DNA from: Escherichia coli
Lineage (GTDB): Bacteria; Pseudomonadota; Gammaproteobacteria; Enterobacterales; Enterobacteriaceae
NCBI RefSeq assembly: GCF_003790525.1
Contig: NZ_CP033636.1
Length of the DNA stretch: 64,000 bases
Strand: one strand, 5' to 3'
In this document: positions 32,753 to 39,800 of the stretch, piece after piece
Layout of the letters: each line of letters opens with the position of its first letter
Position numbering within the stretch: position 1 is the stretch's first letter
Notes under the pieces: generated by a model
What the model saw: the letters and a program-made list of their open reading frames with translations, nothing else
What the model was told of the DNA's origin: nothing
Databases searched by the model: none
Program-made: the position numbers and the translations under genes

Positions 32753-33391
32753 CTATCTTGCCAAAGTTGCCAGTCGCTTGTTTGCCTTAGCTTTAGATTT
32801 TATGCTTATGGAGGCGGTTTGATTTTCATCCGATACTTTTTCTAGCACTGGCACCACAGCGGAAATGGACTTTTCTTTTGAAATTTTGGATGCATCTGAA
32901 GAAAGTGGGCTTTCAGATGGTATAGAGGTATCGCTTCCCTCATTTTCAATCTTCACACCAAAGCAGGCATGTTCCTTTTGTACAAGGAAGGTTTCTTTTA
33001 CAGAAACAGAATCCTGCTTTGAATTATCTAATTGTAGAGGTGTTAAATACTCCTTAAACTTTTGATCTAAGACATTCTCTAGCAATACATTAATAGGAGG
33101 CTTAGGTTCAGTATCTATAGTATTTCCATCATTCAGAAACCTATTAAGATCTGCAAGTGTTAATCTTTCGTTTAAACCATTTATAAAATTTGCCAAGTCA
33201 GGAAATAAATTATTCAATACCAACCCGGTACTAATAGCCGACCTAATTAAATCCAGTTGGTCACCCCTATGAGAAAGTTCTGTTTTTTTCAAGAAACTAT
33301 AAACATAGGGTGCTTTTCTTTCGGATATCCAGAAAGACCGGATCTGAATCCGGTCGTTATCTGCCTTATTTGAGATAGGGTTTTTAGCCAT
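32753..33391 (-). CDS. parR: putative ParR/StbB-like partition adaptor (partner of ParM)
   Basis: ORF track 212 aa; immediately downstream of the actin-like ATPase gene with 11-nt spacing; assignment by position only. Confidence 0.4.
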   Translation of the reverse strand: MAKNPISNKADNDRIQIRSFWISERKAPYVYSFLKKTELSHRGDQLDLIRSAISTGLVLNNLFPDLANFINGLNERLTLADLNRFLNDGNTIDTEPKPPINVLLENVLDQKFKEYLTPLQLDNSKQDSVSVKETFLVQKEHACFGVKIENEGSDTSIPSESPLSSDASKISKEKSISAVVPVLEKVSDENQTASISIKSKAKANKRLATLAR

Positions 33392-33402
33392 GTTCTAGCT
33401 CA

Positions 33403-34440
33403 TTATTCTGAATAAATAGTATCAGCAATTGCCAAAGATAATGCGAACTGCGGATTGTCTACCATGATAACTTTAGCCGTTTCAAAATGTTTACGAATAG
33501 CTGTTTCGATGAGATATGAACCTCCCCCAACAAGGAAAACATTATGAGGCCTCTCTTCGACTTGTGTAACCGCTCTGATTACTTTACTTTGCAACTTCTG
33601 TACCGCAGAGTTTACCGCATCAAAAACACCGTCACGCTTGTCCTCTGCAACCTTCAAAGCTGATTTATCATGACGATTATCAACAAGATGATGAATGTAA
33701 GCATTACTCGTATTCAGTTTCTCAGATTCAAGATACCTGCTGATCTCATCGTAAACAATAGAACAACCAATACGGTCAAAACCTTTTACTTTCGAAATCT
33801 GTTCTAATTGCCCAGTAATACTTGCAACATCAAGAGTAGTACCACCAAGATCAATTACCAAACTTGATTCAAATGAAGCAATATCCTCAATTTCATCTGC
33901 CCGGGTCACAGCTGGTAAAGATTCAGGGAAAACAGTCACAGACAAAACGTTGAAAGAATAGCGTTTACCGTCAAGATAACGCTCAACTGGTTTCATCAGG
34001 TTATCTTTTTTTCTCTGAATATTTTCAATATTCGTTTCCCCTAAAGCAGTATAGAACTGGCTAAGAGGTAAAGTAACAAAGAGGTGAACATCCTGAGGAA
34101 CTAAACCAGAAGCATGAAGTGCATGGTGAACATTTAACCGGCTAATTTCATCGTATTGGTGAGATACATCAGTCGATTCCAGTGAGTTACTAGATTCGCT
34201 GTGATGCGAAAACCTTTCCAGCCCATCAATAAGATAGTTAAAAGGATTGAGACCCTCATGGCGAACACGGAAATCTGGAACAAAACTATTTTGTGTGAGC
34301 AAGGGAACTAATTCGTTTCTTTCATTAAGACAAACCAGTTTTGCAGCTTTACTTCCATCATCGACAACGATTTTTAAAGCTTCAGTGATATCCTGCAATG
34401 ATTGTGAAACAGGACTTTCAGATTTTAATAGTTCAGCCAT
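33403..34440 (-). CDS. parM: ParM/StbA-family actin-like segregation ATPase
   Basis: ORF track 345 aa; actin-fold phosphate motifs VIDLGGTTLDVA and FLVGGGS. Confidence 0.75.
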   Translation of the reverse strand: MAELLKSESPVSQSLQDITEALKIVVDDGSKAAKLVCLNERNELVPLLTQNSFVPDFRVRHEGLNPFNYLIDGLERFSHHSESSNSLESTDVSHQYDEISRLNVHHALHASGLVPQDVHLFVTLPLSQFYTALGETNIENIQRKKDNLMKPVERYLDGKRYSFNVLSVTVFPESLPAVTRADEIEDIASFESSLVIDLGGTTLDVASITGQLEQISKVKGFDRIGCSIVYDEISRYLESEKLNTSNAYIHHLVDNRHDKSALKVAEDKRDGVFDAVNSAVQKLQSKVIRAVTQVEERPHNVFLVGGGSYLIETAIRKHFETAKVIMVDNPQFALSLAIADTIYSE

Positions 34441-34803
34441 AAAAACTCTCTTTTATTAATAGGACCATATTAGATATTAACTTTATACATTAATGGTGAC
34501 CTATTATCAACATCAACACTATTAAAAAAATACGTAACTCTATGTTATTTCAGCATCCTTCCATTTTAAATACATTACCGTTAAATATCCTGTATTCATG
34601 AAGTAAACATGTTTATAAAGGAGCCAATTATAATCAGAAAGTTACTTTGCATCCTAAGTATGAACTGTTTGAGAGCCAGGACTGGAGCCTTTACCAGTAA
34701 GTAACAAAGGTCCTTAGGCTTAGAATCCAAAATGACGCCTTTATGTAAAAAAATCATAGCTCGAAATACCGTATCATCGATGTAAACATACGTAGAGGAA
34801 TTT

Positions 34804-37515: not shown

Positions 37516-37540
37516 GAACTGCATCATAAAGATGCAGTTC
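37516..37540. terminator. bidirectional terminator hairpin between convergent operons
   Basis: Perfect GAACTGCATC-ATAAA-GATGCAGTTC inverted repeat between the plus-strand operon end (37484) and parB stop (37546). Confidence 0.5.
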
Positions 37541-37545
37541 AATAT

Positions 37546-38550
37546 TTATTCTGATACTTTTAATTTTTCTTTTATGAACTCCTCTAGCTCCTTAATAAAA
37601 CCCGCACTTATCCTATTGAATTCAATGCGAATTTTTCTTCCAGTATTGTTTTTACTGATTCTTGCATACTTATCTTTGTTATCAAAAGTAATAAGATCAC
37701 TTGTTTCCCATTTTGTGGAATAAGATTTTTCACAAACACTTTCCACAGATTGTGTGATTTTCTCCATTACAACTTTTTGGGCAACTTGGAGATCTCCAAT
37801 GTCTAAATCTTTTGTTTCCTCTTTAACATTATCTATTACTTCATCTAAAGGAAATAGATTTTTTTGCACATATTTCTGTAAACGAGACAAGCGACTATAA
37901 TAGGAGTTCGGTATTCCTTCATAATCCGGGAATAAAGAGATCAATGTTTCGTCAATACGTGCCGCCTGGATTCTTTTGGCTACCGATACATGACTAATCC
38001 CAAGATATGCTGCGAGTTCTTCATTAGTAGAAAATCCCTTTTCTTCCATTTTCTTGATAAATTGAAACCCAACTTCTCTATATGAAAATTTTCGAGATGT
38101 TTGTGCTGCGGATATAATTGAATTTATATCATCTTCGGTTAGTTCATCCGGTAGTACCCACAGGGGGAGATCCTTTTCTGCCTTTATACAGCAGAAACGT
38201 CTGCGACTTCCTTCTATTAATAAATAAACCCCATCTCTTTTTACAGCGATCCCTTCGGTATCGACCCCTCTTTCTTCAATCTGCTTAAGAATATCTCTAA
38301 CAGAATAATCTGTAAGGGCTTCTTGATTTCGTGGGTTTGCTGGATGGACTAAGGTCTCCTTCTCCACTCTCTGGGCTGGAACAATCACATGTTCCGCTTC
38401 AAGTCTTCGGCCCTTATGAAGAGTGAATAACTTTTTTATGCGAGGTGCTGTTTTCAAACCCGCAAGACCTGAACGGTGACCGACTTCTGTCCGCTTTGGT
38501 GCGTTTAAATATCGAGATTTATCATTCCCGATATGTTGCTCATCGCTCAT
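37546..38550 (-). CDS. parB: ParB/SopB-family partition protein
   Basis: ORF track 334 aa; ParB-box-like LIEGSRRRFC, HTH-like region, gene overlaps parA stop by 4 nt. Confidence 0.65.
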   Translation of the reverse strand: MSDEQHIGNDKSRYLNAPKRTEVGHRSGLAGLKTAPRIKKLFTLHKGRRLEAEHVIVPAQRVEKETLVHPANPRNQEALTDYSVRDILKQIEERGVDTEGIAVKRDGVYLLIEGSRRRFCCIKAEKDLPLWVLPDELTEDDINSIISAAQTSRKFSYREVGFQFIKKMEEKGFSTNEELAAYLGISHVSVAKRIQAARIDETLISLFPDYEGIPNSYYSRLSRLQKYVQKNLFPLDEVIDNVKEETKDLDIGDLQVAQKVVMEKITQSVESVCEKSYSTKWETSDLITFDNKDKYARISKNNTGRKIRIEFNRISAGFIKELEEFIKEKLKVSE

Positions 38551-39800
38551 GCGTTAACTCCTTGCTTAGCTGAAAAACTTTTTATTTCATTTATAAATTG
38601 TTGATATACCTGTAATACAGATTCTTCTGCGACATCAAGTTGCTTTGCGGAACAAAGTTCCTCTGATTTTTTGATATCAAGCACTGTACGCCCTTTGGAA
38701 GCAGCTGCCTTAAATGCTTCAGAATTTTTTATGTTAGCGGACATCAAAAGGTCCTGAACAGTTCTGATTAATTTATCCAAAACTATTCTTTCATATGGAC
38801 TTTTGTCATCAACATTGACAGCAAGAACTTTGAACCATTTTAAATTATCGCCCTTACTTGGTGATTGTTTAAACCTTTCACTTATTGTAAGCATGAAGTC
38901 TGTAGTAGAGGCGTAATCATATTCACGTGGTGACACTGCGACAAGAATCCCATCGGCCGCTTCGTCAGCAGCCCAGATCAAAGGTGAATCTTCAGGTGGA
39001 GTGTCTATAATAATCAAATCATAGTTCTGCTTCAGTACCGGTAAGATAACTTCCTTGAAACGTAGTAACAAAGACGTTCGTTCTTCTCTAGAACATTGCC
39101 AGTATTTATCTTTAAAACGAGCATCTGTCGGAAATGCCGTTATCACGTCCAAGTTTGGCAGATGCGTTGAAAAAGGCATATTAGTGATGATTTCTTCTTC
39201 AGAGAATCCTGAATCTAAATATTTTTTATACTCAGAATTTTCTTCATAAATTCCAAGGATTGCATCAATTGCTGTAAGGAAGACATCATCTTCTGAGACA
39301 CTTTGAATCATGCTGCTTCCAATCGAACCTTGTGGGTCCCATTCGATCATTAATACACGTGCATTCAGTTGTAGATCTAAAGCAGCTGCTACTGCTAAAG
39401 CTACAGATGTAGTGCTTTTCCCTGTACCGCCTTTATGATTCTGAGTAACAATAGCTCTGCTAAAGTAATGATCGCGGTACTTGGGATAACCCAGGGCATC
39501 CATTATTTTTTGAACATCCCAGCGGGTGTAAAGATGATTTTTGTTTTGATAAATAGGTGCACCAACAACTTCTTTTTCTTCTAAGTCCGAAAGTATTTTA
39601 TTGAACGTTACTCGTGACTTCCCAAAAAAATCAGAGAGATTTTTTTTATTTAAACAGTGGTTGTAGATCAGTCTATCAACACCATCAACACTATCATCAG
39701 AAACAGATACTCTTGATGAAGCCATCAGAGATTCCTTAAGAGAAATCTGCTCGCTTTTCATGCGCTGACCAACGAGGGCGATCTTTTCAAGTAAATTCAT
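38547..39800 (-). CDS. parA: ParA/SopA-family partition ATPase (type Ia, long N-terminal extension)
   Basis: ORF track 417 aa; deviant Walker A KGGTGKSTT, ~110-aa N-terminal extension typical of SopA/P1 ParA-type proteins. Confidence 0.85.
   Translation of the reverse strand: MNLLEKIALVGQRMKSEQISLKESLMASSRVSVSDDSVDGVDRLIYNHCLNKKNLSDFFGKSRVTFNKILSDLEEKEVVGAPIYQNKNHLYTRWDVQKIMDALGYPKYRDHYFSRAIVTQNHKGGTGKSTTSVALAVAAALDLQLNARVLMIEWDPQGSIGSSMIQSVSEDDVFLTAIDAILGIYEENSEYKKYLDSGFSEEEIITNMPFSTHLPNLDVITAFPTDARFKDKYWQCSREERTSLLLRFKEVILPVLKQNYDLIIIDTPPEDSPLIWAADEAADGILVAVSPREYDYASTTDFMLTISERFKQSPSKGDNLKWFKVLAVNVDDKSPYERIVLDKLIRTVQDLLMSANIKNSEAFKAAASKGRTVLDIKKSEELCSAKQLDVAEESVLQVYQQFINEIKSFSAKQGVNA

What the first reader, a model, noticed from the sequence alone, without database searches (positions are those of the whole stretch)
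32753..39800. Two partition systems of different types flank an inserted plus-strand operon
A type II module (actin-like ParM plus downstream adaptor) and a type Ia module (long ParA plus ParB) lie within 7 kb inside the transfer region. They are separated by an unrelated four-gene operon on the opposite strand. The dual partition systems match what I recall for IncHI plasmids. The inserted operon looks like cargo.
Basis: partly seen in the sequence, partly recalled or inferred. Interest (0 to 1): 0.4.

Follow-up and report, generated by a model that had tools for sequence, protein, structure and literature searches.

The report
IncHI2 double partition modules, known
This stretch is the well-known backbone of IncHI resistance plasmids, in which an actin-type and a Walker-type plasmid-partition system sit on either side of a conserved conjugation and entry-exclusion operon; that operon is not inserted cargo, and the partition modules are more likely the movable pieces.

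Summary
At 32753-39800 lie parR-parM (minus strand), four translationally coupled plus-strand genes, and parB-parA (minus strand), inside the Tra2 transfer region of an IncHI2 plasmid. The window is 100% identical to many E. coli and Salmonella IncHI2 plasmids.

The IncHI double-partition reading is right and already published for R27 and R478. The "inserted cargo operon" reading is wrong:
- The four genes are trhO-orf16-orf17-trhZ, the IncHI "Z operon", which the literature links to transfer frequency and entry exclusion.
- They are present in essentially all 1129 matching plasmids.
- They are orthologous and collinear in IncHI1 R27/pHCM1.
- In a distant Klebsiella IncHI1B lineage they sit between htdA and trhC with no par module beside them.
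- In a metagenomic relative, the slot next to trhC holds a different, P1-type parABS cassette.

So the operon is the fixed resident and Par1, at least, behaves as an exchangeable cassette.

Outside the reported coordinates, a 3-kb tandem array lies upstream of parA (40180-43212). It carries 11-13 copies of a 21-bp core, ATTTAACCCCCTTAATCGCCA. R27 has 23 copies of the same core, and an unrelated Citrobacter plasmid carrying this parAB also has it. It is the likely Par1 centromere. The Par2 centromere was not found.

Nothing here is new in kind; interest is low.

The parts
32684..32701 (-). Terminator-like hairpin plus T-run, about 50 nt after the parR stop; end of the parM-parR transcript
   Evidence: The hairpin and T-run are conserved in R27, in the Photorhabdus relative L011 and, more weakly, in the metagenomic relative L012.
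32753..33391 (-). parR-like adaptor of Par2 (212 aa). Conserved N-terminal ~90 aa, variable linker, and a conserved basic C-terminal tail (KAKANKRLATLAR).
   Evidence: Starts 11 nt after the parM stop. Family alignment. One source names a homologue 'ParR'. Link to R1 ParR/StbB is weak: 9 of 14 family members hit PF10784, best E 0.066; hhalign against the R1 ParR family gives E 8e-4, probability 25%. No hit on its own. The AlphaFold2 model was too poor to use, pLDDT 48.
33403..34440 (-). parM, the actin-like partition ATPase of Par2
   Evidence: Pfam StbA_N 1.1e-66 and ParM 1.7e-60. R1 ParM structures at 2.7e-43. 80% identical to R27 ParM.
34457..34510 (-). Candidate parM promoter (-35 TTGATA 34510-34505, -10 TATAAA 34487-34482) flanked by an imperfect inverted repeat (34457-34472 / 34491-34506). 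Possible ParR operator. No R1-style iteron centromere is visible.
   Evidence: Read from the sequence. Inverted repeat. The block ATGTTGA..ACCAT..TATA is conserved across five lineages. k-mer searches found no iteron family.
34804..35751 (+). trhO, first gene of the Z operon; a divergent calcineurin-like metallophosphoesterase
   Evidence: Pfam Metallophos 4.4e-5. Lambda phosphatase 1g5b at 1.7e-3. Annotated TrhO in MF344581. Orthologues in R27 (72%) and in the Klebsiella IncHI1B plasmid (30-31%, 2e-28).
35748..36584 (+). orf16 of the Z operon; has an N-terminal signal or anchor sequence. One of the two middle ORFs that I take to be the R27 entry-exclusion genes eexA/eexB; the assignment is from memory and not verified.
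   Evidence: Orthologues found. Z operon described as the entry-exclusion system in PMC7366339; EexA/EexB in PMC11493245.
36577..37098 (+). orf17 of the Z operon; predicted lipoprotein (lipobox LLTGC)
   Evidence: Sequence. Orthologues: 57% in IncHI1 and 35% (8e-31) in the Klebsiella lineage.
37095..37484 (+). trhZ, last gene of the Z operon; a secreted small protein
   Evidence: Annotated TrhZ. 77-78% identical to IncHI1, 44% (2e-27) to the Klebsiella lineage, 65% to the metagenomic relative L012.
37515..37541 (.). Bidirectional terminator (11-bp stem) between the convergent trhZ and parB
37546..38550 (-). parB of Par1; P1-type centromere-binding protein with an HTH and a C-terminal dimer/DNA-binding domain
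   Evidence: Pfam PF08775 3.8e-11. P1 ParB(142-333) structure 1zx4 at 3.6e-16 over residues 150-330.
38547..39800 (-). parA of Par1; long (417 aa) Walker-type ATPase with a ~110-aa N-terminal extension; overlaps parB by 4 nt
   Evidence: Pfam AAA_31 2.3e-20. 7npd (407 aa) at 4e-37 over residues 64-396; P1 ParA 3ez2 at 2.8e-12 over residues 63-315.
39832..39866 (-). Candidate parA operator/promoter region: ACGCATTATGCGTAAAGTTTACATATATGCGTAAA (repeated and inverted TATGCGTAAA motifs)
   Evidence: The same motifs lie upstream of parA in pHCM1/R27 and in the Citrobacter plasmid.
40180..43212 (-). Tandem array (~249-bp units) with 11-13 copies of the core ATTTAACCCCCTTAATCGCCA (read on the parA strand). 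Proposed Par1 centromere (parS array).
   Evidence: TRF gives period 249 x 10.6 copies. 11 core matches with <=3 mismatches against 0 expected, plus 2 more degenerate copies. The same core occurs 23 times at 52-54-bp spacing in R27 and 6.4 times at 56 bp upstream of a 72%-identical parAB in an unrelated Citrobacter plasmid. A variant core accompanies the 48%-identical ParB of a Klebsiella plasmid.

Best explanation
The interval is the central part of the Tra2 region of an IncHI2 (R478-type) conjugative plasmid. It contains three independent transcription units.

1. Par2 (parM-parR), a type II system. Inferred by analogy with R1: ParR binds a still unidentified site near the parM promoter, and its C-terminal tail captures ParM filaments that push sister plasmids apart.

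2. The Z operon (trhO-orf16-orf17-trhZ), on the opposite strand. It encodes one cytoplasmic phosphoesterase-like protein and three exported or lipid-anchored proteins. In R27 the operon supports efficient transfer and entry exclusion. It is an ancestral transfer operon, not cargo.

3. Par1 (parA-parB), a type Ia system. Inferred here: the P1-like ParB loads on an array of 11-13 short P1 'small parS'-like sites upstream of parA (40180-43212), and the long ParA both moves the complex over the nucleoid and represses its own promoter through the repeats at 39832-39866.

In R27 Par1 is the major and Par2 the minor stability determinant. Comparative data indicate that the Z operon is the fixed element and that Par1 (array plus genes) behaves as an exchangeable cassette in the slot next to trhC.
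For: Identity and family:
- 100% DNA identity to IncHI2A plasmids; 1129 matching records.
- Annotated names TrhO/Orf16/Orf17/TrhZ/ParM/ParR/ParA/ParB.
- ParM, ParA and ParB domain and structure matches.

Conservation:
- Same gene order in pHCM1 and R27, with all 12 genes orthologous.

Polarity (which part is resident):
- The Klebsiella IncHI1B plasmid has htdA <-> trhO-3 genes -> <- traC with no par genes, although that plasmid family carries a related parAB with its own arrays elsewhere.
- Metagenomic relative L012 keeps parMR and the Z operon. Its slot holds a different P1-type parAB (27-29% identity; Pfam HTH_54) with a P1-like parS downstream of parB.
- The HI-type parAB with its array also occurs in an unrelated Citrobacter plasmid.

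Centromere candidate:
- The 21-bp core is identical in IncHI1 and IncHI2, although the interval as a whole is only ~71-72% identical in DNA and the repeat periods differ.
- The core co-varies with ParB.

Transcription units:
- Terminators and gene overlaps.

Literature:
- PMC4489591 and PMC12317039: R27 Par1 is the major and Par2 the minor determinant.
- PMC5034289 and PMC9599605: parAB and parMR lie within tra2 of IncHI2.
- PMC7366339, PMC11628540 and PMC11493245: roles of the Z operon, trhO/trhZ and EexA/EexB.

Natural lesions hit Par2 only:
- An IS inside parR.
- ISKpn26 removes parR and the 3' third of parM in plasmids still typed conjugative.
Against: - The function of each module is transferred from R27 and R1/P1 work that I could only read second-hand, because Lawley & Taylor 2003 and Lawley et al. 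2003 are not in the held library.
- The ParR assignment rests on position, architecture and weak profile similarity only; the structure model failed.
- No centromere for Par2 could be recognised.
- The array-as-parS idea is comparative inference. Typical type Ia systems have parS downstream of parB, and the array could instead, or also, be an incompatibility or silencing element.
- Gain versus loss of the par modules cannot be strictly polarised without a rooted tree.
Confidence: 0.88

Rival explanations
1. One reading: the two par modules were originally adjacent, as in the pB171 double par locus, and the four-gene plus-strand operon is later, unrelated cargo inserted between them.
For: - The operon is on the opposite strand, and three of its four products have no Pfam family.
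- Double par loci with adjacent modules do exist (pB171, cited in PMC13245405).
Against: - The operon is present in essentially all IncHI2 records.
- It is orthologous and collinear in IncHI1 at backbone-like divergence.
- It is present in the same position without any par module in the Klebsiella IncHI1B lineage.
- There is no GC step and there are no IS or repeat scars at its borders.
- The literature assigns it transfer and exclusion roles under tra regulators (PMC7366339, PMC11628540).
Confidence: 0.03
2. The whole block parR...parA, including the Z operon, is ancestral to all IncH-type plasmids. On this view the Klebsiella IncHI1B lineage secondarily lost parMR and relocated parAB, so the par modules are not 'insertions' either.
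For: - The double arrangement is old. It is kept in IncHI1, IncHI2, a Photorhabdus plasmid (at least parMR plus the Z operon) and metagenomic relatives with backbone identity down to 57-78%.
- Two gains and two losses are equally parsimonious on three lineages.
Against: - The Par1 slot holds non-orthologous parAB cassettes in different lineages (27-29% identity against a 57-78% backbone).
- The HI-type parAB plus array is found in unrelated plasmid contexts. This shows module mobility.
- The published description also treats the par genes as inserted in the tra clusters (PMC9599605).
Confidence: 0.2
3. The 3-kb array upstream of parA is not the Par1 centromere. It would instead be a different cis element (for example an incompatibility or silencing array, or a binding array for a host or tra regulator) or selfish repetitive DNA, and the true parS would be a single site elsewhere.
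For: - In classical type Ia systems, and in relative L012, parS lies downstream of parB.
- The array's period and flanking unit sequence differ completely between IncHI1 and IncHI2.
- The array is GC-rich relative to its surroundings.
Against: - Only 61 bp separate parB from trhZ, and a terminator fills that gap.
- The 21-bp core is invariant across lineages where everything around it has changed.
- The array travels with parAB into an unrelated plasmid.
- A diverged ParB (48% identity) is accompanied by a matching variant core both upstream of parA and downstream of parB.
- The core mirrors the P1 A2-A3-B2 layout seen next to a P1-type ParB in L012.
Confidence: 0.25

Closest known systems
R27 (IncHI1) Par1/Par2 double-partitioning modules and Tra2 Z operon (Lawley & Taylor 2003; Lawley et al. 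2003; Gunton et al. 2008; known to me through citing papers PMC4489591, PMC12317039, PMC7366339, PMC11493245)
   Same: Identical gene order parR-parM / trhO-orf16-orf17-trhZ / parB-parA between htdA and trhC. All proteins are orthologous at 40-89% identity. The same 21-bp repeat core lies upstream of parA.
   Different: - This is the IncHI2 version.
- The repeat units are ~249 bp with 11-13 cores, against 52-54 bp with 23 cores in R27.
- ParR and Orf16 are only ~40-45% identical to their R27 counterparts.
R478 / IncHI2 backbone (Gilmour et al. 2004, as cited in PMC5034289 and PMC12317039)
   Same: Same plasmid family. The interval is 98-100% identical to >1100 IncHI2A records. 'parAB and parM-parR within tra2' are listed as core IncHI2 determinants.
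   Different: None of substance. Some lineages carry IS903B just 3' of parR, an IS inside parR, or an ISKpn26-associated deletion of parR and part of parM.
Plasmid R1 parMRC (type II)
   Same: ParM is a clear homologue (2.7e-43 to 1mwk). A small gene follows directly. Its product has a conserved N-terminal domain weakly alignable to R1 ParR and a short basic C-terminal tail that resembles R1 ParR's ...TKKNAMKLIN.
   Different: - The adaptor is about twice as long (212 vs 117 aa), with a ~100-aa variable linker.
- No parC with two sets of five 11-bp iterons is visible upstream of parM.
Phage/plasmid P1 parABS (type Ia)
   Same: - Long ParA with an N-terminal extension.
- ParB matches the P1 ParB HTH plus dimer domain.
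- The repeat core ATTTAAC-CCCC-TTAAT-CGCCA parallels the P1 box A2 / inverted box A3 / box B2 layout. That layout is seen directly in L012 as ATTTCAA-GG-TGAAAT..TCGCCA; the P1 box names are from my own knowledge.
   Different: - ParA is closer to the 407-aa ATPase of 7npd (4e-37) than to P1 ParA (3e-12), and lacks a Pfam HTH_54 hit.
- The candidate centromere is a multi-copy array upstream of parA, not a single IHF-bent site downstream of parB.
F plasmid sopABC
   Same: Type Ia system whose centromere is a tandem array (12 x 43 bp, from my own knowledge) of one short binding motif per unit.
   Different: - sopC lies downstream of sopB.
- The proteins are only distantly related (SopA model 1e-7, far below cutoff).
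- The units here are much longer and more degenerate outside the core.

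Membership tests
Type II (ParMRC) partition system | Actin-like ATPase ParM | tested here: met
   Pfam StbA_N 1.1e-66 and ParM 1.7e-60, both above cutoff. R1 ParM structures at 2.7e-43 over residues 24-322.
Type II (ParMRC) partition system | Small DNA-binding adaptor ParR (ribbon-helix-helix N-terminus, C-terminal ParM-binding tail) encoded directly downstream of parM | tested here: inconclusive
   Position is met (11-nt gap). The architecture fits: conserved N-terminal domain, variable linker, conserved basic tail. Homology to R1 ParR/StbB is only weak: PF10784 in 9 of 14 members at E >= 0.066; hhalign E 8e-4, probability 25%. The fold is not testable because the AlphaFold2 model has pLDDT 48.
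Type II (ParMRC) partition system | Centromere parC: iterated ParR-binding repeats overlapping the parM promoter | tested here: not met
   No iteron family was found upstream of parM or downstream of parR in IncHI2 or IncHI1. Only a conserved promoter block with one imperfect inverted repeat (34457-34506) is present. The site may exist in a form not recognisable by sequence.
Type II (ParMRC) partition system | Stabilises a test replicon | not testable with these tools
   Reported for R27 Par2 as the minor determinant (Lawley & Taylor 2003, via PMC4489591). Not tested for this IncHI2 copy.
Type Ia (ParABS, P1/F-like) partition system | Long Walker-type ParA (~400 aa) with an N-terminal DNA-binding extension | tested here: met
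   417 aa, with the Walker A motif KGGTGKST at about residue 122. Alignments to 7npd (residues 64-396) and P1 ParA 3ez2 (residues 63-315) extend into the N-terminal region. There is no direct Pfam HTH_54 hit.
Type Ia (ParABS, P1/F-like) partition system | Large HTH ParB partner encoded downstream in the same operon | tested here: met
   334 aa with a 4-nt overlap with parA. PF08775 above cutoff. P1 ParB 1zx4 at 3.6e-16 over HTH plus dimer domain.
Type Ia (ParABS, P1/F-like) partition system | Cis-acting centromere bound by ParB | tested here: inconclusive
   A strong candidate was found outside the reported coordinates: the core ATTTAACCCCCTTAATCGCCA occurs x11-13 at 40273-43212. It is conserved in R27 and in a Citrobacter plasmid carrying this parAB, and it co-varies with ParB. 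Binding was not tested.
Type Ia (ParABS, P1/F-like) partition system | Autoregulation by ParA at an operator in the par promoter | not testable with these tools
   A candidate operator of repeated and inverted TATGCGTAAA motifs lies at 39832-39866 and is conserved in IncHI1 and the Citrobacter plasmid. Function was not tested.
IncHI Tra2 'Z operon' (trhO-orf16-orf17-trhZ) | Four collinear genes between the htdA side and the trhC side of Tra2, orthologous to R27 R0015-R0018 | tested here: met
   Same order and orientation in R27/pHCM1, with 40-78% identity for all four genes. Annotated TrhO/Orf16/Orf17/TrhZ in MF344581.
IncHI Tra2 'Z operon' (trhO-orf16-orf17-trhZ) | Role in transfer frequency and entry exclusion | not testable with these tools
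   Taken from the literature on R27 (PMC7366339, PMC11628540, PMC11493245). Not tested for IncHI2 here.

The most novel reading that the evidence does not exclude
Two linked ideas remain open.

1. The Par1 centromere of IncHI plasmids is not a single P1-type parS. It is a long, rapidly remodelled tandem array of P1 'small parS'-like cores (11-23 copies, with periods from 52 to 249 bp). This array, together with parAB, forms a cassette that is exchanged at a fixed slot between the exclusion operon and trhC.

2. More speculatively, placing both partition modules around the Z operon couples partition-complex assembly to expression or placement of the transfer and exclusion machinery. ParB spreading from the array, or ParR acting at the shared parM/trhO control region, could provide the link.
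Probability: 0.15. Interest if true: 0.45.

Novelty: already known. Interest (0 to 1): 0.15.

Why it matters
IncHI2 plasmids are major carriers of mcr-1, ESBL and carbapenemase genes, and their persistence depends on these stability modules. The finding as stated adds nothing new: the double partition system and the Z operon were described for R27 and R478 two decades ago.

The modest value of this re-examination is threefold:
- It corrects the 'cargo' label. The operon is core transfer and exclusion machinery.
- It shows by comparison that the par modules, especially Par1 with its repeat array, are the exchangeable parts.
- It gives a concrete, testable 21-bp candidate for the Par1 centromere. 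That could be useful for incompatibility-based plasmid curing, or for typing.

Tried and rejected
- Reading the primary papers. Lawley & Taylor 2003, Lawley et al. 2003 and Sherburne et al. 2000 are not held. I relied on citing papers.
- ParR fold. The AlphaFold2 model from a 14-sequence alignment reached only pLDDT 48 / pTM 0.20, so no fold search was run. Sequence and profile searches against the PDB gave only noise. The family is tiny: 16 representatives among 1.84 billion proteins.
- Par2 centromere. Repeat finding, k-mer counting and four- or five-way footprinting of the parM-trhO and parR-htdA spacers showed promoters and a terminator but no iterons.
- An early reading that IS903B truncates parR in the R478-like lineage was wrong. 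Translation shows that parR is intact and the IS sits just after its stop codon.
- Rfam found no RNA family anywhere in the window.
- The consensus promoter scan was no better than shuffles (19 found vs 24.5 expected) and was not used.
- A second conserved block in the 249-bp units (TTCGCATNATGGGAG, 10 copies) shares CGCATTATG with the parA operator. A test of the full operator motif against the array gave chance-level matches, so no link is claimed.

Full report
**Observation**

ORF listing confirms the reported anatomy exactly.
- On the minus strand: a 212-aa ORF (32753-33391) begins 11 nt after the stop of a 345-aa ORF (33403-34440).
- On the plus strand: four ORFs with 4-, 8- and 4-nt overlaps (34804-35751, 35748-36584, 36577-37098, 37095-37484).
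- On the minus strand again: a 334-aa ORF (37546-38550) overlaps by 4 nt a 417-aa ORF (38547-39800).

Protein matches:
- The 345-aa protein is a clear ParM. Pfam gives StbA_N 1e-66 and ParM 2e-60, and R1 ParM structures match at 2.7e-43.
- The 417-aa protein is a long Walker-type ParA. It hits AAA_31, the 407-aa ATPase of 7npd at 4e-37 over residues 64-396, and P1 ParA 3ez2 at 2.8e-12.
- The 334-aa protein is a P1-type ParB. It hits PF08775 and the P1 ParB HTH plus dimer-domain structure 1zx4 at 3.6e-16.

A hairpin with a T-run follows parR (32684-32701). An 11-bp-stem bidirectional terminator (37515-37541) separates the convergent trhZ and parB. The interval therefore holds three separate transcription units.

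**What the window is**

The interval is 100% identical to IncHI2A plasmids of E. coli and Salmonella. It matches 1129 plasmid records, 1109 of them over at least 80% of its length. The flanks are rsp-htdK-htdF-htdA on one side and trhC-trhV on the other, which places it in the Tra2 transfer region.

One annotated record names the eight genes ParR, ParM, TrhO, Orf16, Orf17, TrhZ, ParB and ParA.

The literature agrees with this reading:
- R27 carries a type I and a type II partition locus, the first being the major and the second the minor stability determinant (PMC4489591 and PMC12317039, citing Lawley & Taylor 2003).

This part of the finding is already known.

**The 'inserted cargo operon' is not cargo**

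Four lines of evidence contradict that reading.

1. Ubiquity. The operon is present in essentially every matching IncHI2 record. TrhO is found at >=99% identity in 1112 plasmids, at 60-80% in 283 (IncHI1) and below 60% in 570.

2. Orthology at backbone-like divergence. pHCM1 and R27 (IncHI1) have the identical order and orientation. Identities to the window are TrhO 70-72%, Orf16 40-45%, Orf17 57%, TrhZ 77-78%. The neighbours span the same range: ParR 42%, ParM 80%, ParB 70%, ParA 89%, HtdA 84%, HtdF 50%, HtdK 52%, Rsp 83%. Base composition shows no step at the operon's borders.

3. Position without par genes. In a distant Klebsiella IncHI1B/IncFIB plasmid the same four genes lie between htdA and traC(trhC), divergent from htdA, with no parMR and no parAB next to them. 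Their matches to the window are 30-31% / 2e-28, 24% / 3e-9, 35% / 8e-31 and 44% / 2e-27. That plasmid family keeps a related parAB elsewhere.

4. Function. In R27 this is the 'Z operon'. [quoted passage not shown] 2003). EexA and EexB are the IncHI1 exclusion proteins, and EexB sits in the outer membrane (PMC11493245, citing Gunton et al. 2008).

The sequences fit an envelope role. Orf16 and TrhZ have signal-like N-termini and Orf17 has a lipobox (LLTGC). Which of Orf16 and Orf17 is EexA and which is EexB is my recollection and was not verified.

**Which part is mobile**

A metagenomic relative, L012, has a backbone of intermediate divergence (TrhC 78%, Rsp 69%, TrhW 57%). It keeps the full order traC-parA-parB-(IS fragment)-Z operon-parM-parR-htdA.
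- Its ParM (59%), ParR (29%) and Z-operon proteins (35-65%) diverge roughly in step with the backbone.
- Its ParA and ParB are only 27% and 29% identical to the window's.
- They are a different, P1-type pair: ParA has the Pfam HTH_54 domain and ParB has PF08775 at 1e-29.
- A P1-like parS lies downstream of parB, with ...AAATTTCAAGGTGAAAT... followed by ...TCGCCA....

Conversely, the window's type of parAB (ParA 89%, ParB 72%) occurs in a Citrobacter plasmid among replication and phage-like genes, with no transfer genes nearby.

The slot between trhZ and trhC therefore holds exchangeable Par1 cassettes, while the Z operon is constant. parMR looks vertically inherited within the IncHI1/IncHI2/L012 group and is absent at this locus in the Klebsiella lineage. 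Strict polarity (gain versus loss) cannot be settled without a rooted tree, so I keep that as a rival at 0.2.

**Par1 anatomy beyond the reported coordinates**

Only 61 bp lie downstream of parB, and the terminator fills them. Upstream of parA lie two features.

The first is a set of repeated and inverted TATGCGTAAA motifs at 39832-39866. They are conserved in IncHI1 and in the Citrobacter plasmid. This is a plausible ParA operator.

The second is a 3-kb tandem array at 40180-43212.
- TRF reports period 249 x 10.6 copies.
- Each unit carries the core ATTTAACCCCCTTAATCGCCA, read on the parA strand.
- There are 11 matches with <=3 mismatches against 0 expected, plus two more degenerate copies.

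The same core turns up in other settings:
- In R27 the same 21-mer occurs 23 times, but in 52-54-bp units.
- In pHCM1 the array is split by IS421.
- In the Citrobacter plasmid it occurs 6.4 times at a 56-bp period.

The core is thus invariant, while the DNA of the interval as a whole is only ~71-72% identical and the unit sequence has been completely remodelled.

A Klebsiella parAB whose ParB is only 48% identical has 67-bp arrays upstream of parA (x12.6) and downstream of parB (x3.4). Their core is related but different, AACAACCCCGTTGTTCGCAG. That is the pattern expected when a binding site co-evolves with its protein.

The core's layout, ATTTAAC-CCCC-TTAAT-CGCCA, parallels the box A / inverted box A / box B arrangement seen next to the P1-type ParB in L012, ATTTCAA-GG-TGAAAT followed by TCGCCA. 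This fits ParB's homology to both DNA-binding modules of P1 ParB.

I therefore propose that the array is the Par1 centromere, built from many 'small parS'-like sites. This is inference and binding is untested. I could not check whether the R27 papers already say so.

**Par2 anatomy**

The adaptor gene is in the right place, and its family alignment has the expected shape: a conserved ~90-aa N-terminal domain, a ~100-aa hypervariable linker, and a conserved basic tail (K-K-A-N-x-x-L-A-N-L-A-K/R). The tail recalls the ParM-binding tail of R1 ParR.

Direct evidence of homology is weak:
- There is no hit for the protein alone.
- PF10784 (StbB/ParR) is hit by 9 of 14 family members, but only at E >= 0.066.
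- hhalign against an R1 ParR family alignment gives E 8e-4, probability 25%, for residues 37-89 against 27-80.
- The structure model was unusable.
- The family is very small.

No R1-like iteron centromere could be found. Only a conserved promoter block is present (-35 TTGATA 34510-34505, -10 TATAAA 34487-34482), with a flanking imperfect inverted repeat.

Natural lesions hit Par2 only in the plasmids sampled:
- An IS lies inside parR in p13E573-HI2.
- ISKpn26 removes parR and the 3' third of parM in several plasmids still typed conjugative.

This is consistent with Par2 being the minor determinant.

**Verdict**

The feature is already known, so overall interest is low. The comparative points (operon resident, Par1 cassette exchangeable, candidate 21-bp parS core in arrays) are modest refinements that bench tests could settle quickly.

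Noticed in passing
window 40180-43212: A GC-rich (~50% vs ~37%) tandem array of ~249-bp units lies between parA and trhC. It carries a 21-bp core shared with R27's 52-54-bp repeats. Copy number varies among IncHI2 plasmids: 7 to at least 10 exact-pattern copies (the row for L007 reports 11 matches but lists 10 positions), and parA-trhC gaps of 3836-4103 bp. GenBank records annotate several short 'hypothetical proteins' inside it; these are probably spurious.
   Followed up: yes
window 34804-35751 (TrhO): The metallophosphoesterase motifs look degenerate. Motif II reads GNLFDYG instead of GDxxDRG in all three lineages compared. The motif I histidine is Tyr in the Klebsiella orthologue. No clear GNHE motif was seen. 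TrhO may be a non-catalytic or unusual phosphoesterase.
   Followed up: partly
window 55749-56804 (+), next to Rep gene 54397-55272 (-): An orphan 351-aa protein has a ParB HTH domain (PF17762, 5e-6) and no adjacent ParA. It lies beside a Rep3-type initiator. It probably corresponds to R0042, one of the extra 'partition protein' genes that PMC7366339 lists for R27.
   Followed up: no
L006 4792-5760; L001 6583-7703; L007 2126-3106: IS elements cluster at the parR end of Par2 in natural IncHI2 plasmids. IS903B sits immediately 3' of an intact parR in the R478-like Enterobacter lineage. An IS lies inside parR in p13E573-HI2. ISKpn26 is associated with loss of parR and the 3' third of parM.
   Followed up: partly
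L012 2429-5900: A metagenomic IncH-like element carries a P1-type parABS cassette (ParA with HTH_54) in the same slot. Its P1-like parS, downstream of parB, appears duplicated or split around an rve-family IS fragment (copies near 4874-4929 and 5813-5868).
   Followed up: partly
L004 8700-8924 and 11687-12527: The Klebsiella plasmid parAB is flanked on both sides by 67-bp repeat arrays (x3.4 downstream of parB, x12.6 upstream of parA). Their core is palindromic, AACAACCCCGTTGTT, followed by CGCAG. It is a variant of the IncHI1/2 core.
   Followed up: partly
window 30919-31473 (HtdK): Weak hit to the Whirly single-stranded-DNA-binding fold (PF08536, E 1.2e-4, 22.4 bits against a cutoff of 23).
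   Followed up: no
window 40203-43145: A second conserved block, TTCGCATNATGGGAG, occurs once per 249-bp unit (10 copies, 0.57 expected). It is specific to the IncHI2 form of the array. Its role is unknown.
   Followed up: partly
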